Assembly (NCBI RefSeq): GCF_009914755.1
Contig: NC_060937.1
From: the human T2T-CHM13v2.0 reference genome, Homo sapiens
Length of the DNA stretch: 64,000 nt
Strand: one strand, 5' to 3'
The stretch's first letter is position 1, and each line of letters begins with the position of its first letter. Positions 1-52,991 of this stretch are shown in pieces. Position numbers and translations under genes: made by a program. A model generated the notes under the pieces. That model was given only the letters and a program-made list of their open reading frames with translations, was not told the origin of the DNA and ran no database searches.

Positions 1-3000
1 GCTCTTGGAAATCCTGTACTATGGCAGTGCAGAAGGAAAAGAACGGCTTTGAGTGACTATGCAGGACGCCACCATCCTCTAGACCCCAGATTCATAGACC
101 TACCAACAGTTCACACCCTCAGTATGGAAAAGTGATAGGCACTCAACACCAGACCAGCCCATGAGAGCATCCATGGGGGCTAAAGCCTGCAAAGCCACAG
201 GCCCACTGCCCTGGTAGAGGTTTTCCATGAGCCGCTGCCTCTGCAGCAGGCTACTCCCCCTTCCTACTACCCACCACCCTCCCACCACCCTACAGCCAGC
301 CTACACTTCCCCACCCTACTCACCCCTTTTTTCTTCCACCCATACCCCTCCCATCCATGATTAAATAATCTCACACCAGGCCCCAACTCCAACATTTGGG
401 ATTACAATTCCACATAAGTTTTTCCAGGGGCACATAGCCAAGTCATATTATGCTGACCTTGACCCCACCAAATCTCATATCCTTCTCACAGAATAAAATA
501 CAGTCGTGCCTTTTCAAAGTTTCCAAAAGCCTTAACTCATTCCCGCATTAACTCAAATGTAAAAAGTTCAAAGTCTCATCTGAGACAAGACTACAGTCTC
601 TTCTGCCTATGAGTCCCTGAAGTTAAAAGGGTGTTCATTTCTTTCAAGGTACAATGATGGTACAGATATTGGGTAAGCTTTCTCAATCCAAAGGGAAGAA
701 ATTTCCAAGAACAATAACACAAATGGAACCACAGGCCCAATGGACATCCAAAATCCCACAGGTCAGTTTTCATTCAATCTCACATCTCCAAAATCATGAA
801 GAGAACTCAATATCAGAAGGACAGCATTAAGGAGATGGTGTTTAACCATTTGTGAAGGATGCACCCCCACCCCTGCCTTACACCCCCAATCCCACCACAA
901 TCCCATCCAACCCTCCTCACCACCGAATCCCCCCCAACCATCCCCAACCCCCAACCATCCAACCTCCTCTCTCCATCATGATTAAAACACCTTCCACCAG
1001 CCCCCACCTTTAACATTTCCCATTAACATGCCACATGAGCTTTGGTAGAGACAGAGAGCCAAAACATATTATTCTCTCCCTGGTCCCCCAATGTTCATGT
1101 CTTTCTCACATTGCAAAATGCAATGATGCCTTCCCTAGAGTCTCTCAAATCTTAACTCATTCAAGCATTTACTCAAATCCCCAAAGCCCAGAGTCTTATC
1201 TGAGACAAGTCTACAGTCCCTTCTGCTCATGAGCCACTGAATTACATATAAAGGAAGTTTACTGCTTCCAAGGTGCAATGATTTTACAGGCATTGAGTAA
1301 GCATTCCCAGCCAAAAGGAAAACATTTGCGAGAAAGAAGCACAAAACACAGATGGGACTTACAGACCCCATGCAAGTCAAAAACCCAGCAAGCCAGTCAT
1401 TGAATCCTAAAGCTCCGAAGTCATCTTTTCTGAATCTATATCCCACATCTGGAGCACAGGGGTGGATGGCTGGGCTCCCAAGGCCTTGGGCAGCTCAGCA
1501 TCTGTGCCTGTGCAGGGTCTATCCCCCATAGATGCCCTCATGGGCTGGGCTGGTGTTGAGTGCCTGTGGCTTTTCCACACTGAGGATGCCAGCAGTTGGC
1601 GGGTCTATGAATCTGGGGTACGGAAAATGGTGCATTCCTGTGTGGGGGCTACAACCCCATATGTTCCTTCTGTACTGCCCTAGTAAAGGTTTCCCATGAG
1701 GCTCTGCCTCTTGGAAAAGCTTCTGCCTCAACACACAGGTTTTTCCATACATACTCTGGAGTCTAGACAAAGGCTCCCAAGCCTCCAGTTTTGTGCTCTG
1801 TGCACCTGCTGGCTTAGTACTATGTGGAAGCCACCAAGGTTTGAAGCTTGCACCCCTGAAGCAGTGATGCAAGCTGTACCTGTGCATCTTTCAGCCATGG
1901 CTGGAGCTGGAGCTGGAGCTGGAGATGCAGGGATGCAGGCAGCAGTGTCCTGAGGATGGACACAGCTGCGTGACCATGGGACTGACCCAGGAAAGTATTC
2001 TTCGGTCCTAGAACTCGGGGCCTGTGACAGCAAGCTCTGCTGCAAAGGTCTCTGAAATGGCTTCAAGGCCTTTTAGACATTGTCTTAGCTATAAGCACTG
2101 GGTTCCATTTTATGCAAATTTCTGAAGCCTTCTTGAATTTTCCCACTGAAAATCAGCTTTGCTTTTTGACCACATGGCCAGGCTGCAAATTTTCCAAACT
2201 TTTAAGCCCTGCTTCTCATGTAAATATAATTTTCAATTTGAGGTCATTTATTCAGTCACAGAGAAGACCACAGGCTGTTCAAAACAGACAAGACACCTCT
2301 TGAACTTTGCTGCCTACTTCATTTCACCAGATATACCCAAAATCATCACACTCAAGTTCAAAGTTTCAGAGGTCTCCAGGGCAGGGACACCATCCAGCCA
2401 AGTTCTTTGCTAAGTCAAAACAAAAGTAACCTTGACTCCTCTTCCCAGTAAGTTGCTCATTTTCATCTGAGACCTTCTAAGCCTGGCCTTCACTGTCCAT
2501 CCTTCAGTCACTCTTTTAATTATAGCTATGTAACAAGTCTCTATGGTCACCCTTTTAACACATCTCTACAATAGTCCAAATTTTCCCTTATCTTTCTGTC
2601 TTCTTCCAAGCCCCCCAAACTGTGCAGCGTCCAGTCGTTACCCACTTCTGAACCTCATTCTACATTTTCAGCTACCGTTGTGGCAGCCTGGCAATGTGGT
2701 AAAAGAAGAAAAGTCCATTTTCAGGGGGAAAATTCAAGAAGGCTTCAGATATTTCCATATAAAGGAAGCCAAATGCTAATAGTCAAAAAAAAAAAATGAG
2801 GAAAAAACCTTGAAGGCATTTCATAGCTCCACTCTACAGTACAAATTTTCTGTAATATTATTTTTTAAAGAGGTTTAATTGGCTCATGTTTCTGCAGGAT
2901 GTAAAGGCAGCAAGTGGTTTCTGCTTCTGGGAGGACTCAGGGAGCCTCCCAATCATACCAAAAGGCCAAGTGACAATGAGGTGTTCCATATGGCAGGAGT

Positions 3001-6000
3001 AGGAAGAAGACACAGAGAGGGAAGAGGTGCCACACCAGGTAATACAACCAGATCTCATGAGAACTCACTATCAGGAGATCAGCATCAGGAAGATTAACCA
3101 ATGGTGAAGGATCCACCCACACCACCACCTACTGTTTCCAGGCAGAAGCCTCCTGCAGAGGCAGAACCTCTTAGAGAACCTCTACGAGTGCAGTGCAGAA
3201 GGAAAATATGGGCTTGGAGACCCCACACAGGAGGCCACCATCCTGCAGACTGCAGATTCATAGACCCACCAACAGCTTGCACTCTCTGCGTGGAAAAGCT
3301 ACAGGCACTCCACACCAGCCCAGCCCATGAGAGCAGCCATGGGGGCTACACCCTGCAAAGCCACAGGTGCACTGCCCTAGTACAGACTTTCCATGAGCCT
3401 CTGCCTCTGCAGCAGGCTACTCCCCCTTCCTGCTACCCACCACCCTCTCACCACCCTACTAACAACCTACTCCTCACCCTACCCACCCCTTTTCCTTCCA
3501 CACCCGCCCCCCTCCCATCCATGATTAAATCACCTCCAGCCAGGCCCCACCTCCAACATTAAGGATTACAATTCACATGAGTTTTGGTAAAGAAACACAG
3601 CCAAATCATATTATTCTGACCCTGATCCCCACAGTCTCATATCCTTCTCACAGAGCAAAATATATTCATGCCTTTTCAAAAGTTTCCAGAAGTCTTAAAT
3701 CATTCCAACATTAACTCAAATGTAAGAAAATCAACATCTCATCTGGGAGAAGTGTACAGTACGTTTTGCCTATGAGTCCCTGAATTTAAAAGGATGTTCT
3801 TTTCTTTCAAGGTACAATAATGGTACTGGCTTTGGGTAAGCTTTTTCAATCCAAAGGGAAGAAATTTCCCAGGAAGAAAACAGAAATGGGACCACAGGCC
3901 TAATACAAGTCCAAAACCCAGAAGGCCAGTATCCATTCAATCTTACAGCTCCAAAGTCATGAAGAGAACTATCACAAGGACAGCAATAAGGAGATTGTTT
4001 AATCATTTGGGAAGGATCCGCCCCCCAACTCCAATTTTCACTCCTCACCCACACCATAAATCCCCGATTCTCCCTACGCCCCATCTTCCAACACCCACTC
4101 TCCACCGTGATTAAATCACCTTCCACCAGGCCCCACCTTTAACATTCCAATGACAATTCCACATGAGTTTTGGTAGAGACACAGAGCTGAATTTTATTAT
4201 TCTGTCCCTGGCTCCCAAAATCTCATGTCCTTCTCACGTTGCAAAATACAATGATGCCTTCCCTACAGTCTCCTAAAATCTTATAACATTACAGCATTTA
4301 TACACATGTTCAAAGCTTAAAGTCTCATCTGGCATAAGGCTACAGTTGCTTAGGCCCATGAGCCTCTGAAATATAAAGCAAGTTAACTACTTCCAAGGTA
4401 CAATGCTTGTACAGGCATTGGGTAAGCATTCCCAGCCAAAAGGAAGAATTTTGCCAGGAAAAAACAAAACACAGACAGGACTTACTGGCCGCATGAAACT
4501 CCAAACCCAGAAGGCCAGTCATTCAATCCTACAGCTCCAAAATCACCCTTTTTGAAACCCTGTCCCACATCCAGGGCACAGGGGTGTGAGGGCTGTGCCC
4601 CCAAGGCCTTGGGCAGCTTGGCACCTGTGTCTTTGCAGGGTTTATGCCCATGGCTGCCCTCATGGGCTTGGCTGGTGTTGAGTGCCTGTGACTTTTCCCC
4701 ACGAAGGATACAAGTTGTTGGGTGTCTATGAATCTGTGGTCTGCATGATGGTGGCCTCCAGTGTGGAGGCTCCAACCCCATGTTTTCGTTCTGCACTGCT
4801 CTAGTAGAAGTTTCATATAATGCTCTGCCTTCTTGGGATGCTTTTGCCTGGACACCCAGGCATTTCCATACATCTTCCAAAATCTATGGAGAGGTTCCCA
4901 AGCCTCTAGTCTCATGCTCCGTCCACCAGTGGCTTAACACTATGAGGAACTTACCAAGGCTTCTAGCCGGCACCCTCTGTAGCAGTGACCCAAGCTGTAC
5001 CTGTGCATCTTTCAGTCATGGCTGGAGCTGGAGCTGGAGCTGGAGCTGCAGGGATGCAGGCAGCAGTGTCCTGAGGCTGCACACAGAAGGGGGTCATGGA
5101 ACTCCACCAGGAAACCATTCTTCTCTCCTAGGCCCCAGGGCCTGTAACAGCAAGGGCTGCTGCAAAGGTCTCTGAAATGCCCTCAAGGCCTTTTCCCTAT
5201 TGTCTTGTCTATGAACACTGGGCTCCTTTTCAGGCAAGTTTCTGAAGCCTTCCTCAATTTTCCCCCTGAAAATCAGCTTTTCTTTTTGACCACATGGCCA
5301 GGCTGCAAATTTTCCAAACTTTTGAGTTCTGTTTCCCATGTAATGTAAGAGTTGGGACTCATTTAATGTAAGTCTCATCCAGAGGTCATTTCCTCCATCA
5401 CACATAAGAGCACAGGCTGTTTGATGCAGACAGGACACCTCATGAGCTTTGCTGCCCAGTTCATTCCACCAGATACTCAGTAAATCATCACCCTCAACTT
5501 CAAAGTTTCACAGATCTCCAGGGCAAGGTCACCGTGCAGCCACGTTCTTTGCTAAGGAAACAAAAGTAACTTTGACTTCTGTTCCCAGTAAGTGCTTCAT
5601 TTTCATCTGAGACCTTCTAAGTCGGGCTTTCACTGACCATTTTCCTGTGAGCCTTCTGATCACAAGTGTTTAACAATTCTTTACAAAGATCCAAACTTTC
5701 TTTCATCTTCTTGTCTCTGAAGCCCTCCAAACTCTCCCGACCTCTGTCCGCTACTCCCTTCTGAACCTGCTTCTACATTATCACTATCTTTGCACAGCCT
5801 GGCAATGTGGTAAAGGAAAACAAGTCCATTTTAAGGGGGAAAATTCATGAAGCCTTCACATACTTGAATGAAAAGAAGCTGAGTGCTGATTGCCAAGACA
5901 ATGGCATTTAATAGTTCCACTTTGCACTACTAATTTTCTCTATGATCATAAAGAAAAGAGGTTTAATTGGCTCATGATTCTGCAGGCCATAAGGAAACAT

Positions 6001-6590
6001 AATGGCTTCTGAATCTGGGAGGACTCAGGAAGCCTTCCAATCATACCAGAATGTCCAGGGGCGATGAGATGATTCATGTGGCAGGAGTAGGCACAAGACA
6101 GACACAGGAGAGAGTGCCACACCCTATTATACAACCAGATCTCATGAGAACTCACTATCACAATGTCAGCATCATGAAGATGGTGCCTAAACATTGATGA
6201 AGGAACAACCACCCACCCCCAACTCCCACTATTTCTAAACAGAAGCCTGCTGCACAGGCAGAGCCTCTTGGAAAACCTCTACCAGGGAAGTGTGGAAGGA
6301 AAATATGGGCTTGAAGCCCCCATGCAGATGGCCACCAACCTCCAGACCCCAGATTCATAGACCCACCAACAGCTCACACCCTCTGTGGAAAAGCTACAGA
6401 CACTCAACAACAGCCCAGTCCGTGAGAGCAGCTGCAGGGGCTAAACCCTGCAAACCCACAGGTGCTGTGTCCTAGTAGAAGTTTTCCATGAGGCTTTGCC
6501 TCTGCAGCAGGCTACTCCCCCTTCCTACTACCCCTCACCCTCCCACCATTCTACTGCCAACCTACTCCTCCCCACCCTAACCAACCCTTT

Positions 6591-7140
6591 TGTGATAACC
6601 TACCTTGTATTAACCTGGTCGACTCTCCCTTAGCTGACAGAGCCAGACAGACTCCATCTTGGCTCCTTCACTTGCAGCCCCTTACCCACCCCCCTTCCTC
6701 AAGGACTTAACTTGTGCAAGCTGACTCCCAGCACATCAAAGAACGCAATTCCTGATAAGATACTCTGGCAAGCTACATCCACAGTTCCCGCCCTTCGCCC
6801 GGTTGATAGTACCCAAAACCCCCGCATTTGTGTCCAGTTGATAGCACCCAAAGCCCCCACATCTATCACATTTGGATGGATTTAAAGCCCCTGCACCTGG
6901 AACTGTTTGTTTTCCTGTAGCCATTTATCTTTTTAACTTTTTTGCCAGTTTTGCTGCTGTGAGATTCCTTCAGCTAGGCTCCCTGTCCCCCTTCTAAACC
7001 AAAGTATAAAAGAAAATCTAGCCCCTTCTTCCGGGCCAAGAGAATTTTGAGCACTAGCCGTCTCTCAGTTGCCGGCAATAAAGGTCTCCTGAAGTCGTCT
7101 CATGGTGTGGCGTTTCTCTACAACTCACTCGGTTACAACC
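6591..7140 (+). mobile_element. Solo LTR of an ERV1-class endogenous retrovirus (LTR6/HERVS71-like) inserted into one array unit
   Basis: About 550 bp absent from the other units. Starts TG, ends '...ctcggttacaac'; TATA-like gtataaaag at ~7004 and AATAAA at 7077-7082. Flanked by direct repeat acccttt (6584-6590 and 7138-7144). Subfamily name is from recall. Confidence 0.8.
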
Positions 7141-10100
7141 CTTTTCCTTCCACCCCAACCACCTCCAATCCATGATTAAATCATCTCCCCCAGGCGCTAC
7201 CTTCAACATTTGGAATTACAATTCCACCTCAGTTTTTATAGGGACACACAGCCAAACCATATTATTCTGACCCTGATATTCCAGAATCTCATGTCCTTAA
7301 CACAGAGCAAAATACCACCATGACTTCTCAAAAGTTTGCAAAAGTCTTAACTCATTCCAAATGTAAAAAATTCAGTCTCATATGAGACAACGCCACACAG
7401 TCCCTTCTGTCTATGAGTCCCTGAATTTAAAACGGAGTTCTTTTCTTTCAAGGTACAATGATGGTAGAGACATTGTGTAAGCTTTCTCAGTCCAAAGGGA
7501 AGAAATTTCCCAGAAAAATAACACAAATGGGCCCACAGGCCCAATGCAAGTCCAAAACCCAGCAGGGCAGTATTCACTCAATCTCTCAGCTCCAAAATCA
7601 TCAAGAGAACTCACTATCATGTGAACAGCATTAAGGAGAGTGTGTTTATCCATTTGTGAAACATCTGCCCCCACCCTCATCTTTCACTCCCACCCACAAA
7701 ATAATCTCCCCTATTTTCCCCACTCCCTTACCTCCAAACCCCATGCTTCTCCATGATTAAATCACCTCCCCCCAGGCCCCATTTTTAACATTCCCCATTA
7801 TAATCCCACATGATTTTGGTAGGGATGCAGAGCCAAATCATGTTATTCTGACCCTGGCCCCCATATCTCATGTTCTTCTCACACTGCAAAATACAATGAT
7901 GCCTTCTCTACAGTTTCCCAATGTCTTCACTCATTCCAGCATTTACTGAAATGTCCAAAGCCCAAAGTCTCTTCTGAGACAAGGCTGCAGTCCCTTCTGC
8001 CCCTGAGCCTCTGAAATACAAAGCAAGTTAACTTTTTCCAAGGTACAATGATTTTACAGGCATTGGGTAAATATTCCCAGCCAAAAGGAAAAAATTTGCC
8101 AGAAAGAATCACAAAACACTGTTGAGACTTACAGACACTGTGCAAGTCAAAAACCCAGCAGGACGGTAATTGAATCTTACAGCTCCAAATCATTTTTTTT
8201 TAATCCAGATCCCACATCCAGAGCACAAGGGTATGAGGCCTGGGCTCCCAAGGCCTTGGGCAGCTCTGCACCTGTGGCTTTGCAAGGTCTAACCTCCACA
8301 GTGGCTCTCATGGGCTGGGCTGGTGTTGAGTACCTGCAGCTTTTCCACAATGAGGGTGCAAGCTGTTAGAAAGTCTATGAATCTGGCCCTTGTGGAATGG
8401 TGCCTCCCTGTATGGGGGTTCCAACCCTATATGTTCCTTCTGTACTGCCCTAGTAAAGGAGGCTCTGCCTCTTGGAAAATTCTGACCTGGACACCCAGGT
8501 TTTTCCATATGTACTCTGGAGTCTAGACAAAGGATCCCCAGCTTCCAGTTTTGTGCTCTGCGCACCTGCTGGCTTAACACCATGTGGAAGCCACCAAAGC
8601 TTGCAGCTTGTGCCCTCTGAAGCAGTGACACAAGCTGTACCTGTGCATCTTTCAGCCATGGCTGAAGCTGGAGCTTCAGGAATGCAGCCAGCAGTGTCCT
8701 GAGGATGGACACAGCAGCTGGGCCACGGTGCTGGAGAAGGAAACCATTCTTTTCTCCCAGGCCTCAGGGCCTGTGATAGCAAGGGCTGCTGCAAAAGTCT
8801 CTGAAATGCCTTCAAGGCCTTTTTAACACTGTATTGGCTAATAGCACTGAACTCCATTTTATGCAAATTTCTGAAGACTTCTTGAACTTTCTCACTGACA
8901 ATCAGCTTTTCTTTTTGACCACTTGGCCAGGCTGCAAGTTTTCCAAACTTTTAAATATGTTTCACCATGAGGTCATTTCTTTGGTCACATGTAGGACTAC
9001 AGGCTGTTCAACACAGACAGGACACCTCTTAAGCTTTGCTGCCTAAAATTTCCTTCCACCAGATACACTCTAAATTATCACCCTGATGTTCAAAATTTCA
9101 CAGGTCTCCAGGTTAGGGGCATCGTGCAGCAACGTTCTTTGCTAAGAAAAAAACAAAAGTGACCTTGCCTCCTGTTCCCAGCAAATTCCTCATTTTCATG
9201 TAAGACCTTCTAAGCCTGGTGATCACTGTCCATCCTTCTGCCACCTTTTTAATTACAACTATTTGACAAGTCTCTACACTGATCCAAACTTTTCCTCATC
9301 TTCCTGTCTTCTTCCAAGACCTCCAAACTCTCCAACCTCTGGCCATTACACACTTCTCAACCTGCTTCTACATTTTCAGCTACATGTGTCACAGCCTGGC
9401 AATGTGGTAAAAGAAGAAAAGTCCATTTCAGGAGAAAAATTAATGCAGGCTTCAGACATTTGCCTGAAAAGAAGCTGAGTGCTGATTGCCAAGACAATAA
9501 GGAAAAGGTCTTGAAGGCATTTCATAGCTCCACTTCACAGCACTAATTTTCTGTATAATCAGAAAGAAAAGAGGTTGAACTGGCTCATGGTTCTGCAAGC
9601 CTTAAATAAGTCATAGAGGCTGCTGCCTCTGGGAGGACTCAGGAAGCCTTCCAATCATACCAGAAGACCAAGCAGCAATGGGAAGTTTTATATGGCAGAA
9701 GTAGAAACAAGACAGAGAGAGGAAAAAGGTGCCACATGTGTGTATAAACCTGTTATACAACCAGATTTCCTGAGAACTCACTATCACAAGGTCAGCATCA
9801 AGAAGATGTTGCTTAACCACTGGTGAAAGATCTGCCCCCTGCCACCCCCACCCCCCACTGTTTCCAGGCAGAAGCCTGAGGCAGAGGCAGAGCCACTAGG
9901 AAAACCTCTACTAGGGCAGTGCAGAAAAAATATATGGGCTTGGAGGACCCACACAGGAGGTTACCAACCTCCAGACCCCAGATTCATAGACGCATCAGCA
10001 GCTTGCACTCTCAGTATGGAAAAGCTACAGGCACTCAACACCAGCCCAGCCCATGAGAGCAACCATGGGGCTAAAGCCTTCAAAGCCACAGGTGCACTGC

Positions 10101-11039
10101 CCTGGTATAGAGGTTTTCCATGAGCCTCTGCCTCTGCAGCAGGCTACGCCCCCTTTCTACTGCCCACCACCCTCTCACCACCCTACTGCCAGCCTATTCT
10201 TCCCCACCCTACCCACTTGTTTTTTTTCCACCCCTACCACTCTCCCGTTTTTGGTTAAAACACCTCCCACCAGACCCTACCTACAACAGTCAGGAATACA
10301 AGTCCCCATGAGTTTTTGTAGGGAAACACAGCCAAACCATATTATTCTGACCCTGACACCCCCACATCTCATGTCCTTCTCACATAGAAAAATACAAACA
10401 TGCCTTTTCAAAAGTTTTGAAAAGTCTTAACTCACTCCAGCAGTAACTCAAATGTAGTAAGTTCAAGTCTCAACCAAGAGAAGGCTGCAATCCCTTCTGC
10501 CTATGAGTCCCTGAATGTAAAAGACAATTCTTTTCTTTCAAGTTACAATGATGGCACAGGCACTGGGTAAGCTTTCTCAATCCAAAGGGAAGATTTTCCC
10601 AGAAAAATAACACAAATGGGACACAGGCCCAATCCGAGTCCAAAACCCAGCAGGACAGCATTCATTTACCATGAGAACTCACTATCACACAGACTGCATT
10701 AAGGAGATAGTATTTGACCATTTGTGAAGGATCTGCCACCCATCCCCACGTTTCACCCCCACCCATACCATGCACCCCCATTCTCCCACATCCCCCTTCC
10801 AATCCCCATTCTCTACCATGATTAAATCACCTTCTACCAAGCCCCACATTTAACATTCCCCATTACAATTCCACATGAGTTTTGGTAGGGACACAGAGCC
10901 AAATCATATTATTCTCCCTTTGGCCCCCCAATCTCATGTCTTTCTCATACTGCAAAATACAATGATGCATTCTCTACAGTCCCCCAATGTCTGAACTCAT
11001 TCCAGCATTTACTCAAATGTCCATTTGTGAAGGATCCAC

Positions 11040-11225
11040 CCTCACCCCTGCCTTTCACCCCCAACCCCACCACAATCCCCCCAACCCTCACCACCCCCCA
11101 ATCCCCCACCTCCCCACCACAATCCCCCCAACCCTCCCCACCCCCCAATTCCCCCCAACCCTCCCCACCCCCCAATTCCCCCAACCCTCCCCACCCTCCC
11201 AACCGTCCAACCTCCACCCTCCACC
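11040..11225. repeat. C-rich low-complexity tract with ~24-bp tandem units
   Basis: 'ccccaaccctccccaccccccaatt'-like unit repeated 3-4 times; an expanded form of the C-rich tract present in every array unit. Confidence 0.8.
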
Positions 11226-14200
11226 ATGATTAAATCACCTTCCACCAGCCCCCACCTTTAACATTTCCCATTAAAATTCCACATGAGTTTTGGTAGAGAC
11301 ACAGAGCCAAAACATATTATTCTGTCCCTGGTCCCCCAAAATTCATGTCTTTCTCACATTGCAAAATGCAATGATGCCTTCCCTAGAGTCCCCCAAGTCT
11401 TAACTCATCCCAGCATTTACTCAAATATCCAAAGCCCAAAGTCTCTTCTGAGAGAAGGCTGCCATATCTTTTGCCCCGAGCCTCTGAAATACAAAGCAAG
11501 ATAACCACTTCCAAGGTGCAATGATTGTACAGGCATTGGGTAAGCATTCCCAGCCAAAAGGAAGAAATTTGCCAGAAAGAAGCACAAAACACAGATGGGA
11601 CTTACAAACTCCCTGCAAGTCAAAAACCCGGCAGGCCAGTCATTCCATCATACAGCTCCAAATCATCTTTTTGGAATCTATGTCCACATCCAGAGCACAG
11701 GGTGCTGTGACAGCTGGGATCCCAAGGCCTTGGGCAGCTCTGCATCTGTGGCATTGCAGAATCTTTCCCCCACAGCTGCCCTCATTGGCTAGGCTGGTGT
11801 TGAGTGCCTGTAACTTTTAAACACTAAGGGTGCAAGCAGTTGGTGGGTCTATGAAACTGGGGTCTGCAAAATGGTGCCTCCCTGTGTGGGGACTCCAACC
11901 CTATACTCTCCTTCTGTACTGCCCCAGAAGAGGTTTACCATGAGGCTCTGCCTCTTGGAAAAGCTTCTGGCTTGACACTCAAGCTTTCCAATATATCCTC
12001 TGGATTCTAGATGAAGGATCTGAAGCTTGTAGTCCTGTGCTTTATGCACCTGCTGCCTTAACACTATGTGGAAGCCACCAAGGCTTGGAGCTTGCATCCT
12101 CTGAAGCAGTGACACAAGCTGTACCTGTGCATCTTTCATCCATGGCTGGAGCTGGAGATGGAGCTGCAGGGATGCAGGCAGCAGTGTCCTGAGGCTGCAC
12201 ACAGCAGTGGAGCCATGGGGTTGGGCCAGGAAACTATTCTTTTCTCCTAAGCCCCAGGGCCCGTGACAGCAAGGTCGGCCAAGAAGGTCTCTGAAATGCC
12301 TTCAAGGCCTTTTTCCCATTGTCTTGAATTATTGGCACTGGGATCCTTTTTATGCAAATATCCGAGGCCTTCTTGATTTTCCCCCTGAAAATCAGCTTTT
12401 CTTTTGGACCAGATTACAAATTTCCCCATTGTTGAAGCTCTGCTTGTCATTTAAATATAAGTTCCAACTTATGGTCATTTCTTTGATCACACATAGGTGC
12501 ACAGGCTGTTCGATGTAGGCAGGACAACTCTTGAGCTTTGCTGCTTAGAAGTTCATTCCACCAGATACATCCTAAATCATCACCCTCAAGTTCAGTTTCA
12601 CAGATCTCCCGGGAAGGGTCACTGTGTAGCCAATTACTTTGCTAAGGCAAAAGAAAAAAACCTTGGCTCCTGTTCCCAGTAAGTTCCTCATTTTCATCTG
12701 AGACCTTACAAACCTGGCCTTCACTGTCCATCCTTCTGTCAGCCTTTTAATCACAACTATTTAACAAGTCTCTGCAATGGTCCATACTTTCCCTCATCTT
12801 CCTGTCTTCTTCCAAGCTCTCCAAACTCTCGAACGTCTGGCCATTACCCAATTTGGAACCTGCTTCTACACTGTCAGCTATCTCTGTTGCAGCCTGGCAA
12901 TGTGGTAAAAGAAAAGTCCATTATCAGGGGGAAACATCAAGAAGGCCTCCAATATCTGCATTGAGAAAAGCTCAGTGCTAATAGCCAAGAGATTGGGGGA
13001 AAGGCCTAGAAGTCATTTCATAGCTTCCCTTCACAACATTAATTTTCTGTATCTACATAAAGAAAATAGGTCTAATTGACTCACAGTTCTTCAGGCTGTA
13101 AAGAAAGCACAGTGGTTTCTGCTTGTAGGAGGACTCAGGAAGCCTCCCAATTATACCAGAAGGCCAAGCAGCAATGAAATGTTTCATATGGCAGGAGTAG
13201 AAGCAAGACAGAGAGAGGAAAGAGGTGCGACATCCTGTTATACAACTAGATCTCATGAGAGGTCAGTATCAGGAGATCAGCATCAAGAAGATGGTGCTTC
13301 ACTGTTGGTGAAGGATCCGCCCACTATCCCATATCCACCACCCACTGTTTCCAAGCAGAAGCCTGAGGCAGAGGCAGATCCTCTTGGAAAACCTCTACTA
13401 GGGCAGTGCAGAAGGAATATATGGGCTTGGAGCCCCCATGACACCATCTTCCAGACCCAAGAGTCATAGACCCACCAACAGCTCACACCCCCAGTATGGA
13501 AAAGCTACAGGCACTCAACATCAGCCCAGCCCACGAGAGCAGCTACAGGTGCTAAACCCTGCAAAGCCACAGGTGCACTGCCTTAGTAGAGTTTTTCCAC
13601 GAGCCTCTGCCTCTGCGGCAGGCTACTCCCCTCCTGCTACACACCACCCTACAGCCAGCTCACCCCTCCCAACCTTACCCACCTGTTTTTACTTCCAACC
13701 CCACCCCTGTCCCAACCATGAATAAATCACCTCCCACCAGGCCCCACCTGCAACATTCGGGATTACAATTACATGTGAGTTTAGGTAGGGACACACAGCT
13801 ATACCTTATTATTCTGACCATGATCCCCCGAATATCATATCCTTCTCACAGAGTAAAATACAATCAGGCCTTTTCAAAAGATGTCGAAAGTCTTAAGTCA
13901 TTTCAGCATTAACTCAAATGTAAAAAGTTCAACATCTCACCTGAGAAAAGGCTAAAGTCCCTTTTGCCTATAAGCTCCTGAATTTAAAAGGGAGTCCTTT
14001 TATTTCAAGGTACAATGATGATACAGGCATTTGGTAAGTTTTCTCAATCCAAAGGGGAGAGGTTTGCCAGGAAAATAACACAAATGGGATCACAGGGCCA
14101 ATGCAAGTCCAAAACCCAGGAGGCCAGTATCCATTCAATCTCACGGCTCCAAAACCATCACGAGAACTCACCATCATGAGGAAAGGATTAAGGAGATGGT

Positions 14201-15720
14201 GTTTAACTATTTGTGAGGGATCCTCCACCCACCCCCACTTTTCACCACTCACCCCCACCATAATCCACCCATACTCCCCAATCTCCACCTTCCAACACCC
14301 AGTGCCCTCCACGATTAAATCACCTTCTACCTGGCCCCACTTTTAACATTTCTGATTACAACTCCACATGAGTTTCCATAGGGACACACAGCCAAATCTT
14401 ATTATTCTGTCCCTGCCCCACAAATCTCATGTCCTTCTCACTTTGAAAATACAATGATGCCTTACTTACCATTCCCCAAGCCACTATGCTTTTTTTTTTA
14501 CAGCCTGCAGAACCATGAGCCAATCAAACCCCTTTTTGTTATGATTATATAGAAAGTTAGTACTGTGAAGTGAAGCTATGAAATGCCTTCAATGACTTTT
14601 CCCCATCGTCTTGGCTAAGACCCACAAGGCCTTAACTCATTCCAGCATTTATTTAAATGTCTGAAGCCCAAAGTCCCATCTGAGACAAAGATGTGGTCCC
14701 TTCTGCTCCTGAGCCTCTGAAATACAAAGCAAGTTAACTACTTCCAAGGTATGATTGTCCAGACATTGAGTAAGAATTCCCAACCAAAAGGAAGATTTTT
14801 GCCAGAGAAGAACAAAACACAAACGGGACTTACAGGTCCCATGAAAATCTAAAACCCAGCAGGCCACTTATTCAAACCTACAGCTCCAAAGTCATCCTTT
14901 TTTAATCCTTGTCCCACCTCCAGGGCACAAGGGTATGAGGGCTGGGTTCCCAAGGCCTTGGGCAGCTCTCTACCTGTGGCTTTGCAGTGTTCAGTCCCCA
15001 CAGCTGCCCTCATGGGCTGTGCTGGTGTTGACTGCCTGTAGTTTTTACCCACAGAGGGTACAAAGTTCTTGGTGGGTCTATGAATCTGGGGTCTGCATGA
15101 TGCTGGCCTCCAGTGTGGGGACTCCAAGCCCATATTTTCCTTCTGCACTGCCCTAGTACAGGTTTCCCAGGAGGTTCTGCTTTTTTGGCAGCCTTCTGTC
15201 TGGACACCCAGGCATTTTCATACATCTTCCGAAATCTACATGAGGGCTCCGAAGCCTCTGGGCTAGTGCTCTGTGCACCCGCGGGCTTAACACTATGTGG
15301 AAGCCATGGAGCCTTATAGCCTGTACCCTCTGAAGCAGTGATGCAATCTGTACCCGTGCATCTTTCAGCCAAAGTCGGAGCAGGAGCTTGGGCTGCAGGG
15401 ATGCAGGCAGCAGTGTCCTGAGGCTGCACACAGCAGCAGGATCATGGGGCTGGCCCAGGAAACCATTCTTCTCTCCTAGGCCCCAGGGCCTGTGACAGCA
15501 AGGGCTACTGCAAACATCTCTGAAATGCCTCCAAGGCTTTTTTCCCCCATTGTCTTGGCTATTAGCACTGGCCTCCATTTTCTGCAAGTTTCTGGCGCCT
15601 TCATGAATTTTCCCCCAGAAAATCAGCTTTTCTTTTTGACCACTTGGCCAGGCTGCAGATGTTCCAAACTTTTGAGCTCTGCTTGTCATTTAAATATAAG
15701 TTCCAACTTGAGGTCATTTC

Positions 15721-15765
15721 CTCGGTCACACATAACCTCGGTCACACATAAACTCGGTCACACAT
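15721..15765. repeat. 16-bp tandem triplication
   Basis: ctcggtcacacataa(c/a) three times; a single copy in the other units. Confidence 0.85.
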
Positions 15766-18700
15766 GAGAGCACAGGCTGTTTGATGCAGACAGGCCCTCC
15801 CCCCACCCCTTGTGCTATGCTGCCTAGAAGTACATTCCACCAGATATGCACTAAATCATCACCCTCGAGTTCAAAGTTTCACAGATCTTGAGGGCAAGTT
15901 CGCCCTTCAGCCGTGTTCTTTGCTACAGCAAAACAAAAGGTAACCTTGGCTCCTGTTCCCAGTAAGTTCCTCATTTTCATCTGACACCTTGTAAGCCTGG
16001 CCTTCACTGTCCATCCTTCTGCCAGCCTTTTAATCACAACTATTTAACAAGTGCCTACAGTGGTCCAAATTTTCCTTCTTCTCCCTGTCTTCTTTCAAGA
16101 TCTCCAAACTCTCCAACCTCTGGCTGTTACCCACTTCTGAACCTGCTTTACATTTTCAGCTATCTTTGTTGCAGCCTGGCAATGCAGAAGAAAAAGAAGT
16201 CCATTTTCAGGGGGAAACTTCAAGAAGCCTTCAGATATTTGCATTAAAAAGAAGTCCAGTGCTAATAGCCAAGACGATGGGGAAATGTCATTGAAGATAT
16301 TTCATAGCTCCACTTCGCAGTACTTTATTTTCTGTATGATCATAATGAAAAGGGGTTTAATTGGCTCATGGTTCTGCAGGCTGTAAAGAAAGCATAGTGG
16401 CTTCTGCTTCTGGGAGGACTCAGGAAGCCTCCCAATCATACCAGTAGGAAAACAGCAATGAAATGTTTCATACAGCAGGAGTAGGAGCAAGGCTGAGAGA
16501 GGAAAGACGTGCCACACCGTCCTATAACCAGATCTCATGAGAACTCACTATCACTAGGTCAGCATCAAGAAGATGGTGCTTAACCATTGGTGAAGGATCC
16601 GCACCCCAACACAGCTCCACCCCCTACCGTTCCAGACAGAAACCTGCTGCAGAGGCAGAGGCTCTTGGAAATCCTGTACTATGGCAGTGCAGAAGGAAAA
16701 TAAGGGCTTTGAGTGACTATGCAGGAGGCCACCATCCTCTACACCCCAGATTCGTACACCTACCAACAGTTCACACCCTCAGTATGGAAAAGTGATAGGC
16801 ACTCAATACCAGCCAAGCCCATGAGAGTAGCCATGGGGGCTAAAGCCTGCCAAGCCACAGGCCCACTGCCCTGGTAGAGGTTTTCCATGAACCGCTGCCT
16901 CTGCAGCAGGCTACTCCCCCTTCCTACTACCCACCACCCTCCCACCACCCTACAGCCAGCCTACTCTTCCCCACCCTACTCACCCCTTTTTTCTTCCACC
17001 CATACCCCTCCCATCCATGATTAAATAATCTCACACCAGGCCTCACTTCCAACATTTGGGATTACAATTCCACATGAGTTTTTCCAGGGGCACATAGCCA
17101 AATCATATTATGCTGACCTTGACCCCCCCAAATCTCATATCCTTCTCACAGAATAAAATATAATCGTGCCTTTTCAAAGTTTCCAAAAGCCCTAACTCAT
17201 TCCTGCATTAACTCAAGTGTAAAAAGTTCAAAGTCTCATCTGAGACAAGGCTACAGTCTCTTCTGCCTATGAGTCCCTGAAGTTAAAAGGGTGTTCATTT
17301 CTTTCAAGGTACAATGATGGTACAGATATTGGGTAAGCTTTCTCAATCCAAAGGGAAGAAATTTCCAAGAACAATAACACAAATGGGACCACAGGCCCAA
17401 CGGACATCCAAAATCCCGCAGGTCAGTGTTCATTCAATCTCACAGCTCCAAAATCATGAAGAGAACTCACTATCAGAAGGACGGCATTAAGGAGATGGTG
17501 TTCAACCATTTGTGAAGGATGCACCCCCACCCCTGCCTTACACCCCCAACCCCACCACAATCCCCTCCAACCCTCCCCACCACCCACTCCACCCCAACCC
17601 TCCCAACCCCCTCAACCATCCAACCTCCACTCTCCATCATGTTTAAATCACCTACCAGCCCCCACCTTTAACATTTCCCATTAACCTTCCGCTTGAACTT
17701 TGGTAGAGACAGAGAGCCAAAACATATTATTCTGTCCCTGGTCCTCTAAAGTTCATGTCTTTCTCACATTGCAAAATGCAATGATGCCTTCCCTAGAGTC
17801 TCTCAAATCTTAACTCATTCCAGCATTTACTCAAATGCCCAAAGCCCAGCGTATTATCTGAGACAAGTCTACACTCCCTTCTGCCCATGAGCCACTGAAT
17901 TATAAAGCAAGTTTACTACTTCCAAGGTAAATGATTGTACAGGCAATGGGTAAGCATTCCCAGGCAACAGAAAAAAAATTGCTAGAAAGAAGCACAAAAC
18001 ACAGATGGGACTCATAGGATACATAAGTGTCCAAAACCCAGCAGGCCGGTCACTCAATCCTACAGCTCCAAAATCATCGTTTTTGAATCCTTGTCCCACA
18101 TCCATGGCACAGGGCTGTGAGAGCTGAGCTCCCAAGGCCTTGGGCAGATCTGACCTGTGGCTTGGCAGCGTTCAGCCTCCGCGGCTGCCTCTCATGGACA
18201 GGGCTGTTGTTGAGTGCCCATAGCTTTTCCACACTGAGGGTGCAAGCTGTTTGTAGGTCTATGAATCTGGGGTTTGGAGATTGATGCATCCTTCTGTTGG
18301 GGCTTCAACCCTATAAGTCTCTTCTTTGCTCCCCTAGTAGAGGTTCCCCATGAGGTTCTGCCTCTTGGAAAAGCTTCTTCCTGGACATCCAGGATTTTCT
18401 GTACATCTTCTGGAGTCTAGACAGGAGCTCCCAAGCCTCTAGTCTCTTTCTCTGTGCACCTACTGGCTTAACACTATGTGGAAACAATCAAGGCTTTGCG
18501 CCACCTCTGAAGCAGTGACCCAAGCTGTACCTGTGCATCTTTCAGCCATGGCTGGTGCTGGAGCTGCAGGGATGCAGGCAGCAGTGCCCTGTGGTTAAGC
18601 ACAGCAGCAGGGCCATGGGACTGGCCCAGGAAACCATTCTTCTCTCCTAGGCCCCACGGTCTGTGACAGCAAGGGCTGCTGCAGAGGTCTCTAAAATACC

Positions 18701-21700
18701 TTCAAGGCCAGTTTCCCACTGTCTTGGCTGTTTGCACTGTGTTCCTTTTTATGCAAATAACCTAAGCCTTCTTGAATTTTCCCCCTCAAAATCGGCTTTT
18801 CTTTTTGACCACTTGGCCAGGCTCCAAATTTTCCAAATTTTAGATCTCCACTTGAAGTTCCAACTTGAAGTTATTTCTTAGGTCACACATAAGAACACAG
18901 GCTGTTCAATGCAGACAGGACACCTCTTGTGCTATGCTGCCTAGATGTTCATTTCACCAGATACTTCCTAAATCATCACCCCCAAGTTCATAGTTTCACA
19001 GATCTCCAGGGCAGGGTCCCTGTGCTGCCACGTCCTTTGCTAAGGCCAATCAAATGTAATCTTGGCCCCTGTTCATAGGAAATTCCTCATTTTCATCTGA
19101 GAACTTTTAAGTCTGGACTTCAGTGTTTACCCTTTTCTCAGCCTTCTGATCACAAGTATTTAACAATTCTCTATAGTGGTCCAATATTTTCCTCATCTTG
19201 TTGTCTTCTAAGCTTTCCCAACTCTTCCTACCTCTGTCTTTTACCCACTTCTGAACCTGGTTCTACATTGTCAGCTATCTTTATCACAGCCTGGCAATGT
19301 GGTAAAAGAGAAAAGTCCATTTTCAGGGGGAAAATTCACAAAGGCTTCAGATATTTCCATGAAAAGAAGCTGAGTGCTGGTTGCCAAGACAAAGGGGAAA
19401 GGGCCTTGAAGGCATTTCGTGGCTCCATTTCACAGCACTAATTTTCTGTATGATCAAAAGAAAAGAGGTTTAATTGGCTCATGGTTCAGCAGGCTGTAAA
19501 GGAAGCATAGTGGCTTCTGCTTCTGGGAGGATCAGGAAGCCTCCCAATCATACCAGAAGGCCAAGGGGCAAGGAGATGTTTCATATGGCAGGAGTAGAAG
19601 CAAGACTGAGAGAGGAAAGAGGTGCCACACCCTGTTATATAACCAGATCTCATGAGAACACACTATCATGAGGACAGCATCAAGAAGATGCTGCCTAACC
19701 ATTGGTGAAGGATCTGCCTCCCACCCCCACCTCCCAATGTTTCCAGGCAGAAGCCTGCTGCAGACGCAGAGTTCTTGGGATACCTCTACTAGGGCAGTGC
19801 ATTAGGAAAAAATGGACTTGGAGCCCCCACACAGGGGACTACCACCCTCCAGACCCCAGATTCATAGACCCACCAACAGCTTGCACCCTCCGTGTGGAAA
19901 AGCTACAGGCACTCAACACTAGTCCAGTCCATGAGAGCAGCCATGGGTCTCAAACCTGCAAAGCCACAGGTGCACTGCCCTAGTAGGGGTTTTCCATGAG
20001 GCTCTGCCTCTGCAGCAGGCTACTCCCCCTTCCTACTACCCACCACCCTCCCACCACCCTACAGCCAGTCTACTCCCTCCCACCGTACCCACCCCTTTTT
20101 CCCTTCCACATCCACCCCCACCCATGATTAAATCACTCCCTCCCACTCCATCTCATACTCTTATCCCTCCAAACCCTTCCAATATTTGTTTGCTACCCAC
20201 TACTGAGCCTGCTTCTACTTTTTCAGGTATCTATATAGCAGGTTGGCTATGTAGCAATAACAAAAATCCCATTTAAGGGGAAAAATTCAAGATTTCAGAA
20301 ATTTGCTTATAAAGAAGCCCTGTGCTAATAGCCAAGACAAAGGAAAAAAGGCCTTGAAGACATTTCACAGCTCCTCTCTGCAGTTCTAATTTTCTGTATT
20401 ATTGTAAATAAAAGAGGTGTAATTGACTCATGGTTCTGCAAGCTGTGAAGGAAGCATAGTGTCTTCTGTTTCTGGGAGGAATCAGGAAGCCTCCTCATTA
20501 TATCAGAAAGCCAAGGGAAAATGAGATGCCTCCTAAAGCAGGAGCAGGAGGAAGACAGAGTGAGGAAAGAGGTTCCACAGCCTGTTAAGGAATCAGATCT
20601 CATGAGAACTCACTCACTATCAGGAGGTGATGGTCCTTTATCAAGGTGATGGTCCTTTATCATTCGTGAAGGATCTACCTGCACCATTTTATGACTAAAT
20701 CTTTTTCCACCTAGGCCCCGCCTCTGACATCACAGAATATAATTCCACATGAGTTTTGGTAGGGACATAGAGAAAAACCATATTATTCTGTCCCTGACCC
20801 CACGAATCTCATATCCTTCTCACATTGCAAAATACAATCATGCCTTGCCAGCAGTCTCCCAAAGTCTTAACTCACTTCAGCATTAACTCAAAGTTACAAA
20901 GTCCAAAGTGTCATCTGGGTCAAGGCTACAGTCTCTTTTGCCTATGAGTCTCTGAAACAAAAAGCAAGTTCACTGCTTCTAAGGTACAATGATGGTACAG
21001 GCATTTTGTAAGCTTTCCATATCCAAAAGGAAGACATTTTCCAGAAAGCTTCTTATTTCTCTCTGAGACCTCTTCAGCCTGGCCTTCACTGTCCATGTTT
21101 CTGTCAGGATTTTTTGTCACAACCATTGAACCAGTCTCTAGGATGGTCCAAAAGTTTTCTATCTGTCTTTTTTTGAGCCCTCCAAATTCTTCCAACCTCC
21201 ATCCATTACCTGGTTCCAAAGCTGCTTCCACATTTCCAGGTATCTTTATAACAATGCTCCAGTCTTCATTTGCCATTTTCTGTAGATTTATTTTGAAAAA
21301 GAGATTTAATTGTCTCATGGTTCTAAGCACAGTGCTTCTGCTTCTAGGAGGCCTCAGAAATCTTTCAATAATCATGGAAGGCAAAGGAAGAATCAGCTGT
21401 CTCACATGGCAAGGGGAAAACAGAGAGTAGGGATGTGACATAGTTTTCAGTGGCCAGATTTCATGAGAAGTCACTCATTATTGTGAGGATGGTACAAGGG
21501 CATGGTGCTGAACCATTCATGAGAAATTTGCCTTCATAATTCAATCACCTTATAGCAGGATCCACCTTCCACATTAGGAAATATAACTCAACATGAGATT
21601 CGGTGTGGACACATATTCGAATTGCATCATCAATCTTTGAATATAAAGACATCCACAGCAGGCTTTATCCAGCCAACTTCTTTGAGACTCTTTATAGGGT

Positions 21701-21875: not shown

Positions 21876-22960
21876 TCAGCTGGATTTCAGTTGAGCACAA
21901 AACCATCCTTCTACTAGCTCTTTGCTAGTGTTATTATTCTGCTGTAGAAAGTATCCTTGAACTGGAAACAGTCCACAATGGAGTATCAAGTCATTCAACA
22001 CTATCAATTCCTGGGTGACTTTTTGAAAAAGTAGTATCTCTTGTTGCAAGAAATGCTGCATCTGTGAGTCCATGTCTCTCACTGGAATTGGATGGAAGTG
22101 GTGAATTTCAGCCAAAGTGGCCAAAGAAATGCTGTTCCTGTGATTCTGACATCATCAGCCTCTGCACCTCTATCTTCCCTTCTGCCACTTGTTGTCTGCT
22201 CTCCGTGACTTTTGTAAGAGCTTCCTTGTGTATGTGGACGATGTCCAGGATGTTGGTCTGGTGTCCCTGAGAAAGCACTAACAGGTCCATGGCTGGGTCC
22301 AGGTCCTGCCTGGACTGATTGGCAAAGACCTCACTGACAGTGTGGAAGGCATCTATACTGAAGTGAATGGCCTGGTCCAGCTCCAAGGCCTGGCTGAGGC
22401 TGAAGAACTGGCAGCCTTCTGATGCTCTTTCTTAAAGCCTGTCACCACTCATTGGCTGTGAAGTTGAGGTGAGTGCCCTGTTGTCCATCTTCTTGGTGAA
22501 GCACTTGAAGCCATCAATCTTGCTCTCCCACTCTAAAGGTTGAGTGTCGCCCTGGGGGTGGGCTCAGGGCCAGGAAGAATCTGGCACTCACCAACTCATC
22601 CTTCTCAGCCTTCCTCTTGCCCTGTCTCCAGGCTGTCTCTTTGGTGCTGGTGGGGCGCATCAGGAAGTGACAAAAAATGTGGCACTGTGCCTGCATCCAG
22701 AAGCTGGCCGTGTGGTTCATCCACCAGATTGGGCCCTTTCTGCACTTGAACATAGACACCACTTCACCATAGATGCCTTCCACACTGTCAGTGAGCTCTT
22801 TGCCAATCAGCCCAGGCAGGACCTGGACCCAGTCATGGACCTGTTAATGCTGTCTCAGGGACACCAGGCCAACATCCTGGACATCATCCACATACCCAAG
22901 TAAGCTCTTACCAGAGTCCTTCTCAAGATGGCCTGTGGTCTGCCTCTTGGCATCCAAGAA
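21876..22960 (-). pseudogene. SNX18: Processed sorting nexin-18 pseudogene fragment (end of PX domain, BAR domain, start of 3'UTR), frameshifted and rearranged
   Basis: Minus-strand frames read '[10 protein letters not shown]...[14 protein letters not shown]', 'LDQAIHF...RQDLDPAMDLL...ALTKVTESR' and 'ATLAEIHHFH..VRD..SQMQHFLQQ..FQKVTQ'. These match the recalled SNX18 PX-BAR C-terminus in changing frames, with no intron. Confidence 0.9.
22759..22919 (+). repeat. Inverted duplicate (~160 bp) of SNX18 pseudogene segment 22207-22365
   Basis: The + strand reads [28 protein letters not shown]..., the reverse complement of 22207-22365 ([28 protein letters not shown]). Confidence 0.9.
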
Positions 22961-24440: not shown

Positions 24441-24799
24441 CTTACTTCTCTGGACAGGCCTAGCTTCTCCACTCATGGGTGCACCCAGGTCCTCATCACT
24501 GTCACCTTAGAGCATTAGAGCCTCTATAGGTGCTCCCCAATCTCTGTCCTCCCCACCCATGGTGGTCCTGGGGATGCAGACAGAGGAGGGGCACTGCATA
24601 ATGCTGAGAGGGCTGGCACCCTCTCTAGGTGGAACACAGGTAATTTGTAAAGTTGTAGGTCTGCCAAACAGTATTGTATTCAACACATCTTCTCACCTTC
24701 TCTTTCCAGCCACCCTCCAGGGTGCCCTGACTCACCTTCCCTGCAGATGGAGGTGAGGTTCCACAGACAAACCCCCTGAGGTCACACAGTGGCCAGCGG

Positions 24800-25405
24800 G
24801 CCAGGTACTGACCAACCGCCACTGACCAGGTTCCCAGTGATGGGGCCCCTAATGACCACTCCTCCATTGACCAGGTCCCACTGATCAAGTCCCCACTGAC
24901 CATGTCTTCCTAACCAGGCCCGCACTTAATAGGCCTCATGGGCCAGACTCCACTGACCAATTTTCCACTGACCTGGTCCCCAGTGACAAGACCAGGTTCC
25001 CACTGACAAGACCACTATTTACCAGGTTGCTGCTCACCCGACCCCCCACTGAACAATTCTCCATGGATGAGTCCCCAGCTGACCAAGCCACCTCTGACCA
25101 GGCCCTCACTGACCAGGCTCCAAGCCACCAAGGTCCCACACTGACCAGGCCCCTGGTATACTGTATATGCCCCACAAACCAGTTTTTCATTGTTTATGTT
25201 CCAACCAATCAGGCCCCACTAGTAAGGCCACCACTGATGAGGTACCCCCCACTGACCAGGCTTCCAATGACTAGGTCACCAGGTCCCCACTGATGAGGCC
25301 TTTACTGAGGAGCCCACCACTAACCAGGCGCCTGCTGATGAGGTCCCAAATGACTAGGTCCTGATGACCAGGTCACCTCTGACCATGGTCCACTGACCAG
25401 GCCCC
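24800..25405. repeat. Degenerate ~16-bp minisatellite (consensus ~ccccactgaccagg)
   Basis: Dozens of imperfect 'ccactgaccagg', 'cactgacaag' and 'cactgatgagg' units in tandem. Confidence 0.85.
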
Positions 25406-26728
25406 TGAGCAGCCGTGCTCAAAGTCTTATTACAATGTCCCCCTCAGCTCACAGACCCTCCCTCCCTGCATATGTGCCCAGAGGTCAGGCCCTGGGGTTT
25501 TTTTTGGGAAATGGCCTTTCCTCCAAGACACAGGGAGAGACAGTCGGCCTCAGGCTCCAGGTTTCCAGCTCCACACTCACCCCAAAGGCCCTCTGGGCCC
25601 ATCTCAAAGGAGACAGTGAGGTGGCCTGGCACTGCCTGGACACGCCATCTACCCTATTCCTGAGTGTCAGAGTGTTAGGAAGGGAGGGACATTTGGCAGA
25701 TGAGACACACTGTGCTGTTGGGTCTCTCAGGGCCCTTCCCACAGAGCCCCGATCTAAAGACACAGCACAGAGGCTACAGGAAGACTAATCCAGAACCTCT
25801 GAGGCTGAGCCAGGGACCACATGAGGACTGTCCCCAGAGAGCCAGAAGGCCCTTTGCTAGTTTCTTGGTACCTCAGTGGATGCGGCAGCTGTTCTTCTGT
25901 TGGGGACCAGTGAGTACACGCTGGGGAGGGCTCGCCTGTGCTTCCTCAGTGGCTCCACCTCTGCTTCTAAAAAAAATGACTCATTCCAGCGCTGGGGCAG
26001 AGAAAATACACGATGAGCTGAGAACACCTTGTGCCAGAAAGTAAAAAAGTGCTGACAGAGTAATGGAGACAAATCAAAAACACATCAAGTCGGCTTGGAA
26101 TGTCTACCACTGGCCTAATCTTGGGGAATTGGAGCATCAGAATCATGAGCTTTCCTTCTCCCTTATTTATTGGTTTTATTTCTCCATGTAGAACAAAGAA
26201 GAGAATAAGAAAATAATCATCTGGCAACCATCATAGTAATAATTGTTCAAACACAAGTCATCCATGAAATGCTAAATCTAGTGGGTTCTGAGGAATAACC
26301 AGATATTTACAGAGCCTCAAAGTATCTCCATACAAAATATAGTTGAACTACAAAAACAAAATCGTAGCATTAGCATGGACAAACCTGGCAGGTACTCCTT
26401 AAGTCTCCTAAGTAATAAAAACTGTAAACTGCAAATAAGCCTTCGATGACCTTTACTAACCTTTATTAAAGTATCAATGATGACTTGGTTGTTTAAACAG
26501 CTGATATTTGGGCAATTTGAGTATGTCAAACTCAATAATACTTGTTTTCATTTGCAAGAGCCACTTAAAACTTAAGGAGGCTAAAAAACATCATTTAAAA
26601 TACCCTATAAATTATCATCGTACATATGATACAAAAATATCCTACTTCAGTAAATATTGTAATGTTATATATTTTATGAGAAACAATTAAAATGTGTAAA
26701 TAGCCCAGTAATAAAGTTTTATAATCTT

Positions 26729-50503: not shown

Positions 50504-52991
<2,488 letters not shown>

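What the first reader, a model, noticed from the sequence alone, without database searches (positions are those of the whole stretch)
1..21632. A more than 21-kb macrosatellite built from a scrambled MaLR retroelement
Seen: ~3.1-kb core units repeat head to tail. On the + strand each runs: first part of the LTR, an inverted internal segment, a C-rich tract, LTR end, ~350 bp of internal region, a second LTR end with C-tract, ~1.6 kb of internal region, and another inverted segment. Established: MaLRs normally occur as solo LTRs or single LTR-int-LTR copies. Inference: one provirus was rearranged and then amplified by unequal exchange into a composite satellite. Repeat annotation would split it into dozens of MST fragments and hide its structure. 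It may be copy-number variable and supplies many LTR pieces downstream of the ANKRD20A pseudogene. This is the best candidate here for an under-described element.
Basis: partly seen in the sequence, partly recalled or inferred. Interest (0 to 1): 0.72.

Follow-up and report, generated by a model that had tools for sequence, protein, structure and literature searches.

The report
Known MaLR "LTR array" megasatellite, 13q11
This is the right half of an already published human repeat array made of head-to-tail copies of a scrambled old retroelement, likely grown by unequal crossing-over; in this genome it is one 19-kb block shorter than the published copy, which likely reflects variation between people.

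Summary
Window 1-21,632 is the distal half of the 13q11 "LTR array" of Warburton et al. 2008 (PMC2588610), a MaLR-derived megasatellite. The paper's two primers hit once per unit (6 and 7 sites; chance 0). Its own refutation test ("already catalogued") is met. "One provirus" is not supported: the two duplicated halves of a unit are as divergent as independent insertions. Small additions: here the array is 41.1 kb with 12 units, against the published 60.4 kb with 18, a gap of one 19.3-kb HOR, while the chr18 and chr21 sizes match the paper. The chr13 and chr18 monomer losses have different breakpoints. A chr9 sister array holds identical 6,208-bp dimers. There is no long ORF and no evidence of function.

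The parts
1..21632 (.). Distal half of the 13q11 MaLR 'LTR array'; whole array runs from about -19,493 to 21,632 (41.1 kb)
   Evidence: paper Table 3
1..350 (.). Tail of the last monomer (type F, my lettering) of the upstream six-monomer HOR
351..3514 (.). Monomer type A, first unit of the five-monomer HOR
   Evidence: tree clade A; map
3515..6590 (.). Monomer type B
   Evidence: tree clade B; map
6591..7137 (+). 547-bp non-MaLR solo LTR with TG...CA ends, an AATAAA near its 3' end and an apparent 7-bp flanking duplication; once per HOR; taken as the paper's LTR6A (name from the paper, no repeat library here)
   Evidence: sequence; 2 copies chr13, 4 chr18, 3 chr21; 31 dispersed copies at 83-89% among the 40 scored of 418 candidates
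7138..10251 (.). C/D hybrid monomer: type-C head switching to type D near 7,240-7,340, where one monomer was lost
   Evidence: tile identities; offset shift 19.27 to 16.4 kb
10252..13711 (.). Monomer type E, with an extra LTR-end piece and long C-tract (10,830-11,216)
13712..17010 (.). Monomer type F, with an extra inverted LTR piece at about 14,478-14,617
17011..20136 (.). Terminal monomer: type-A-like start, then a type found only at the matching ends of the chr18 and chr21 arrays (96-98%)
20137..21632 (-). Terminal MaLR piece: LTR plus internal start, internally deleted, then an uninterrupted LTR (about 21,286-21,630); strand inferred

Best explanation
This is the distal half of the published 13q11 'LTR array', a non-coding megasatellite of scrambled MaLR pieces with a six-monomer higher-order repeat, which likely arose from a cluster of two or more old MaLR insertions and likely grew and shrank by unequal crossing-over. 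Shown: shared junctions in every unit, six monomer types, one foreign LTR per HOR, 95-97% identical partner arrays on chr18 and chr21 with shared flanks, and hybrid monomers at deletion points. Inferred order: (1) nested or adjacent MaLR copies were rearranged into a 3.1-3.5-kb unit; (2) the unit amplified and diverged into types 75-87% alike; (3) a younger LTR inserted once; (4) a six-unit block amplified (HOR copies 90-97% alike); (5) segmental duplication spread it to chr13, 18 and 21 (flanks about 97%); (6) array-specific crossovers removed monomers or whole HORs. It is most likely functionless, methylated filler whose only activity is as a recombination substrate.
For: Paper's primers match once per unit, mostly without mismatch. 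The only long-arm cluster on chr13 is this one. My boundaries give 79.5 kb on chr18 and 53.8 kb on chr21, equal to the paper's Table 3. The tree gives six types plus a terminal type, each 100/100; layouts are chr13 6+5+1, chr18 6+5+6+6+1, chr21 6+6+3+1, matching the paper's described deletions. The C-to-D switch lies about 100-200 bp after the insert on chr13 but about 850 bp after it on chr18, so the same monomer was lost twice, between the two most similar neighbours (89%). Longest stop-to-stop frame is 182 aa, against 464 aa for a MaLR ORF. CpG observed/expected is 0.115.
Against: Size and unit number on chr13 differ from the paper (41.1 kb and 12, against 60.4 kb and 18); I had no hg18 sequence to align, so this is a comparison with a printed table. 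My chr18 count is 24 against the paper's 25 (the partial end units may be counted differently). MSTA, THE1 and LTR6A names come from the paper and were not tested against a repeat library. Lack of function is argued from absence: no expression, methylation or binding data were available. Only three dispersed reference copies were used, and they form a separate branch from the array, so they may be another subfamily.
Confidence: 0.93

Rival explanations
1. A single provirus was rearranged on itself, and all MaLR parts of the unit descend from it.
For: All array pieces form one clade apart from the three dispersed copies (100/100). Every part maps onto one ordinary LTR-internal-LTR layout. The array may evolve faster than dispersed copies, which would deepen internal splits.
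Against: The two duplicated halves are 71-77% alike and split as deeply from each other as from the terminal element (75-78%); branch depths of 0.13-0.16 equal those of independent dispersed copies (0.10-0.16). The paper reports both MSTA and THE1 fragments. The left end starts in mid-LTR, so no shared target-site duplication could be tested.
Confidence: 0.25
2. The one-HOR difference from the published 13q11 array is an assembly or bookkeeping error in one of the two references and not a polymorphism.
For: Only two assemblies are compared, one through a table; the paper itself warns of assembly errors in some arrays.
Against: HOR copies are only 90-93% alike on chr13, which is easy to assemble. 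The deficit (19,249 bp) equals one HOR (19,262-19,324 bp). The paper describes three HORs on chr13 with the third short, and here two are found with the last short.
Confidence: 0.2
3. The array is a regulatory or chromatin element, for example a platform of DUX4-type sites active in early embryo or testis.
For: MSTA copies are enriched among DUX4 peaks (588 of 19,782; PMC3836709 passages). A palindrome-like 11-mer one base off the recalled DUX4 motif is kept exactly at 7 of 13 homologous sites in the window, and the terminal LTR has one perfect match at 21,537. The family sits on many pericentromeric and acrocentric arms.
Against: The monomer sites miss the recalled motif at one position; the motif itself is from memory and a search for the 11-mer returned no relevant paper among 13 listed. 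The LTR is split in every monomer. Arrays are absent from some acrocentric chromosomes in healthy people. No functional element is annotated in the window.
Confidence: 0.1
4. The units are independent MaLR insertions piled into a hotspot.
For: Monomer types are about as divergent (75-87%) as dispersed copies.
Against: The same rearranged junctions recur at 6-7 sites each, and types repeat in fixed order across three chromosomes.
Confidence: 0.01

Closest known systems
'LTR arrays' megasatellite of Warburton et al. 2008 (PMC2588610), 13q11 member
   Same: MaLR LTR and internal fragments in both orientations; ~3.5-kb monomers; six-monomer HOR with one foreign LTR; last HOR on chr13 lacking one monomer; sister arrays on chr18 and chr21 of the same sizes; ten clusters on chr9; the paper's primers match.
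   Different: Here 41.1 kb, 12 units and 2 HORs, against 60.4 kb, 18 units and 3 HORs in the assembly the paper used. The complete genome also gives coordinates for arrays on 13p, 14, 20, 21p and 22 that the paper saw only by FISH.
T2T 'composite' repeats (Hoyt et al., 10.1101/2021.07.12.451456), such as ACRO and LSAU-BETA
   Same: Tandem core units of three or more repeat pieces, attributed to unequal crossing-over, spread over acrocentric and pericentromeric regions.
   Different: This unit is made only of LTR-element pieces and is old (types 75-87% alike). It is not named in the preprint's main text; the supplementary list of 19 composites was not seen.
Ordinary dispersed MaLR (MST/THE1-type) elements
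   Same: All parts but the insert and C-tracts align to them at 62-81%.
   Different: Dispersed copies are single LTR-internal-LTR units of about 2.4 kb (L026, L027, L029; short flanking duplications are visible in two); here the LTR is split, part is duplicated, two internal pieces are inverted, and the whole is arrayed.

Membership tests
Warburton 2008 LTR arrays | Tandem monomers of about 3.5 kb | tested here: met
   Marker spacing 3.1-3.6 kb; diagonals
Warburton 2008 LTR arrays | Made of MaLR LTR and internal fragments in both orientations | tested here: met
   88% aligns to dispersed LTR-internal-LTR copies, with two inverted pieces per unit
Warburton 2008 LTR arrays | Fragments are of MSTA and THE1 subfamilies | not testable with these tools
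   No repeat library available; names taken from the paper
Warburton 2008 LTR arrays | The paper's conserved primer sites occur in each unit | tested here: met
   6 and 7 sites, 10 of 13 without mismatch; chance 0
Warburton 2008 LTR arrays | Six-monomer HOR on chr13, 18 and 21 | tested here: met
   Six clades in fixed order; offsets of 19.3-19.6 kb
Warburton 2008 LTR arrays | One full-length foreign LTR (LTR6A) per HOR | tested here: met
   547-bp LTR, 2+4+3 copies, with dispersed relatives; the name LTR6A itself is untested
Warburton 2008 LTR arrays | Last HOR on chr13 lacks one monomer | tested here: met
   AB-DEF layout and C/D hybrid
Warburton 2008 LTR arrays | 13q11 array size 60.4 kb, 18 units (property of one assembly, not of the family) | tested here: inconclusive
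   41.1 kb and 12 units here, short by one HOR; chr18 and chr21 sizes match; hg18 sequence not available
T2T composite repeat catalogue | Listed among the 19 curated composites | tested here: inconclusive
   Not named in main text; supplementary table not seen
Intact MaLR element | Two whole LTRs around one internal region with a target-site duplication | tested here: not met
   LTR split in all monomers; left end starts mid-LTR

The most novel reading that the evidence does not exclude
This old megasatellite family is still changing size in living humans by whole blocks: 13q11 has two-HOR and three-HOR alleles, the same monomer was lost independently on chr13 and chr18, and a chr9 array has very recently grown four identical 6,208-bp two-monomer units, a new higher-order repeat in the making. 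That would make it an overlooked, multi-locus copy-number polymorphism and a clean model of HOR birth outside alpha satellite.
Probability: 0.6. Interest if true: 0.35.

Novelty: already known. Interest (0 to 1): 0.2.

Why it matters
The element was described in 2008, so finding it adds little. The residual value is that the family appears neglected since then and that the complete genome shows size differences by exact repeat blocks. If these are real alleles, the 28 or so arrays are recombination substrates in pericentromeric and acrocentric duplications and can be typed in pangenomes. No link to a gene, trait or disease was found.

Tried and rejected
Whole-monomer genome search was not scored; a 461-bp query worked. 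Tandem Repeats Finder misses the array because its period limit is 500 bp. Target-site test of the whole array failed because the left end begins in mid-LTR. Tile-by-tile comparison could not tell which HOR is missing on chr13: the window's HOR is 89-97% like several chr18 and chr21 HORs. L028 was dropped as a reference because it is interrupted and lacks an LTR pair, leaving 3 of 4 fetched. In the monomer tree, pieces under 450 bp were left out (55 rows kept). Coding function rejected. Literature searches for follow-up work returned only the 2008 paper as describing these arrays; passages of two satellite reviews and of an acrocentric preprint did not mention them under the terms used. The library lacks most subscription papers, so this does not show that no follow-up exists. 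The chr2 and 13p sister arrays were not read.
Full report
Observation. Self-comparison of the window shows periodic diagonals over 1-20,680 at 77-84% identity and repeated short inverted matches. To test the anatomy I found dispersed relatives with a window-derived pattern (212 matches genome-wide) and read four; three are ordinary LTR-internal-LTR elements of about 2.4 kb. 88% of 1-21,632 aligns to them. Three rearranged junctions recur at 6-7 sites each, so units are copies of one another.

Identity. A full-text search led to Warburton et al. 2008, PMC2588610. I read its abstract, matched passages and parts 3 and 4 of 6 of the body; figures are not held. It describes 'LTR arrays': ~3.5-kb monomers of MSTA and THE1 LTR and MSTA-internal fragments in both orientations, 25 arrays, the largest at 13q11 (60.4 kb, 18 units), 18p11 (79.5 kb) and 21q11 (53.8 kb), with six-monomer HORs marked by an LTR6A. 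Its two primers hit the window 6 and 7 times, once per unit, with none expected by chance. Genome-wide the listed exact hits fall in 28 clusters on 11 chromosomes, ten on chr9 as in the paper, and only one on the long arm of chr13 (my count; 63 one-mismatch hits were not listed). No exact hit is on chr15, where the paper saw no array on 10 of 16 chromosomes.

Higher-order structure. I read 80 kb upstream and the chr18 and chr21 arrays. The chr13 array begins at about -19,493 and shows 90-93% identity at offsets of 19.27 kb and then 16.4-16.65 kb. A tree of 55 natural internal segments gives six monomer types and a terminal type, each at 100/100. Layouts are chr13 ABCDEF/AB-DEF/T, chr18 6+5+6+6+1 and chr21 6+6+3+1 (my lettering), matching the deletions the paper describes. 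A 547-bp LTR at 6591-7137 occurs once per HOR: 2 on chr13, 4 on chr18, 3 on chr21. It has dispersed relatives at 83-89% (31 of the 40 scored, of 418 candidates), so it is a younger family; I take the name LTR6A from the paper.

What is different from print. With my boundaries chr18 is 79.5 kb and chr21 53.8 kb, equal to the paper's table, but chr13 is 41,126 bp against 60,375 bp. The deficit of 19,249 bp equals one HOR. The paper has three HORs on chr13 with the third short; this genome has two with the second short. A polymorphic whole-HOR loss or gain is the likeliest reading (about 0.75), but I could not align the older assembly, and tiles did not show which HOR is missing. The lost monomer on chr13 and chr18 is the same type, but the switch lies 100-200 bp after the insert on chr13 and about 850 bp after it on chr18: two events between the two most alike neighbours (89%). 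On chr9, both primers recur four times at exactly 6,208 bp; in the 14 kb I read, copies match with 0 mismatches over 6,208 and 1,585 bp, and the unit is two monomers 77% alike. The remaining period rests on primer spacing alone, and an assembly artefact is not excluded.

Origin. The duplicated 'LTR end plus internal' halves are 71-77% alike, the terminal element is 75-78% like both, independent dispersed copies are 79-81% alike and LTR pairs of one element 81-86%. The three lineages split unresolved at a depth equal to that of independent insertions. This favours two or more nested or adjacent insertions, in line with the paper's MSTA plus THE1 labels, though a self-rearrangement at the time of insertion is not excluded. 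The left end begins in mid-LTR, so no whole-array target-site test was possible. The later steps (amplification, one LTR insertion, HOR growth, spread by segmental duplication with flanks about 97% identical, local crossovers) are inferred from the nested identities and agree with the paper's scheme.

Function. The longest stop-to-stop frame is 182 aa among 19 of at least 120 aa; a MaLR ORF is 464 aa (PMC3836709, passages). CpG observed/expected is 0.115 against 0.219 in 26-64 kb, as expected after long methylation. The LTR is split in every monomer. The array lies 4.2 kb beyond the 3' end of ANKRD20A9P (annotation), and the LTRs probably face away from it, so they are unlikely to drive it (inference). 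One lead: MSTA is enriched among DUX4 peaks; a perfect match to the recalled DUX4 motif lies in the terminal LTR at 21,537, and a one-base variant is kept at 7 of 13 homologous sites. This is untested.

Later literature. In the T2T repeat preprint the main text has no occurrence of MaLR, MST or 'LTR array' (passages; supplements not seen, and they may list it). Passages of PMC12767296, PMC7767330 and PMC5687341 do not mention the arrays under the terms used. Searches returned the 2008 paper as the only description (listings and abstract starts seen); search 25, limited to 2021 onward, and one search listed none that describe it.

Verdict. Real, well observed, already known. Interest 0.2; the part worth following is size variation by exact blocks on chr13 and chr9.

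Noticed in passing
G000:C9:77,816,846-77,837,091 (L030, L031): Sister array with a 6,208-bp two-monomer unit: both primers recur four times at that exact spacing, and the copies read have 0 mismatches over 6,208 and 1,585 bp. Very recent expansion or assembly artefact; it lacks the 547-bp insert in the part read.
   Followed up: partly
window 51,024-52,413: GC-rich 37-bp VNTR, about 37 copies, in an ANKRD20A9P intron next to RHOT1P3. It resembles an SVA VNTR, and an SVA group carrying RHOT1 sequence is recalled from memory; not tested.
   Followed up: no
window 22,207-22,365 and 22,760-22,918: 159-bp inverted repeat at 92% identity inside the SNX18P26 pseudogene.
   Followed up: no
window 24,756-25,412 and L006/L007 (about -20,350 to -19,490): The same degenerate 15-20-bp minisatellite-like repeat lies on both sides of the array (60-66% alike); on the left it abuts the truncated first LTR directly.
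   Followed up: partly
window 1-17,900 against chr18 and chr21: Identity to the partner chromosomes is about 94-95% inside the HORs but about 97% in the flanks and terminal monomer, suggesting exchange among older HOR copies or faster change inside the array.
   Followed up: partly
G000:C13:10,485,863-10,496,124: A second, oppositely oriented array on the short arm of chr13; the paper saw short-arm arrays on 7 of 16 chr13 by FISH. Not read.
   Followed up: no
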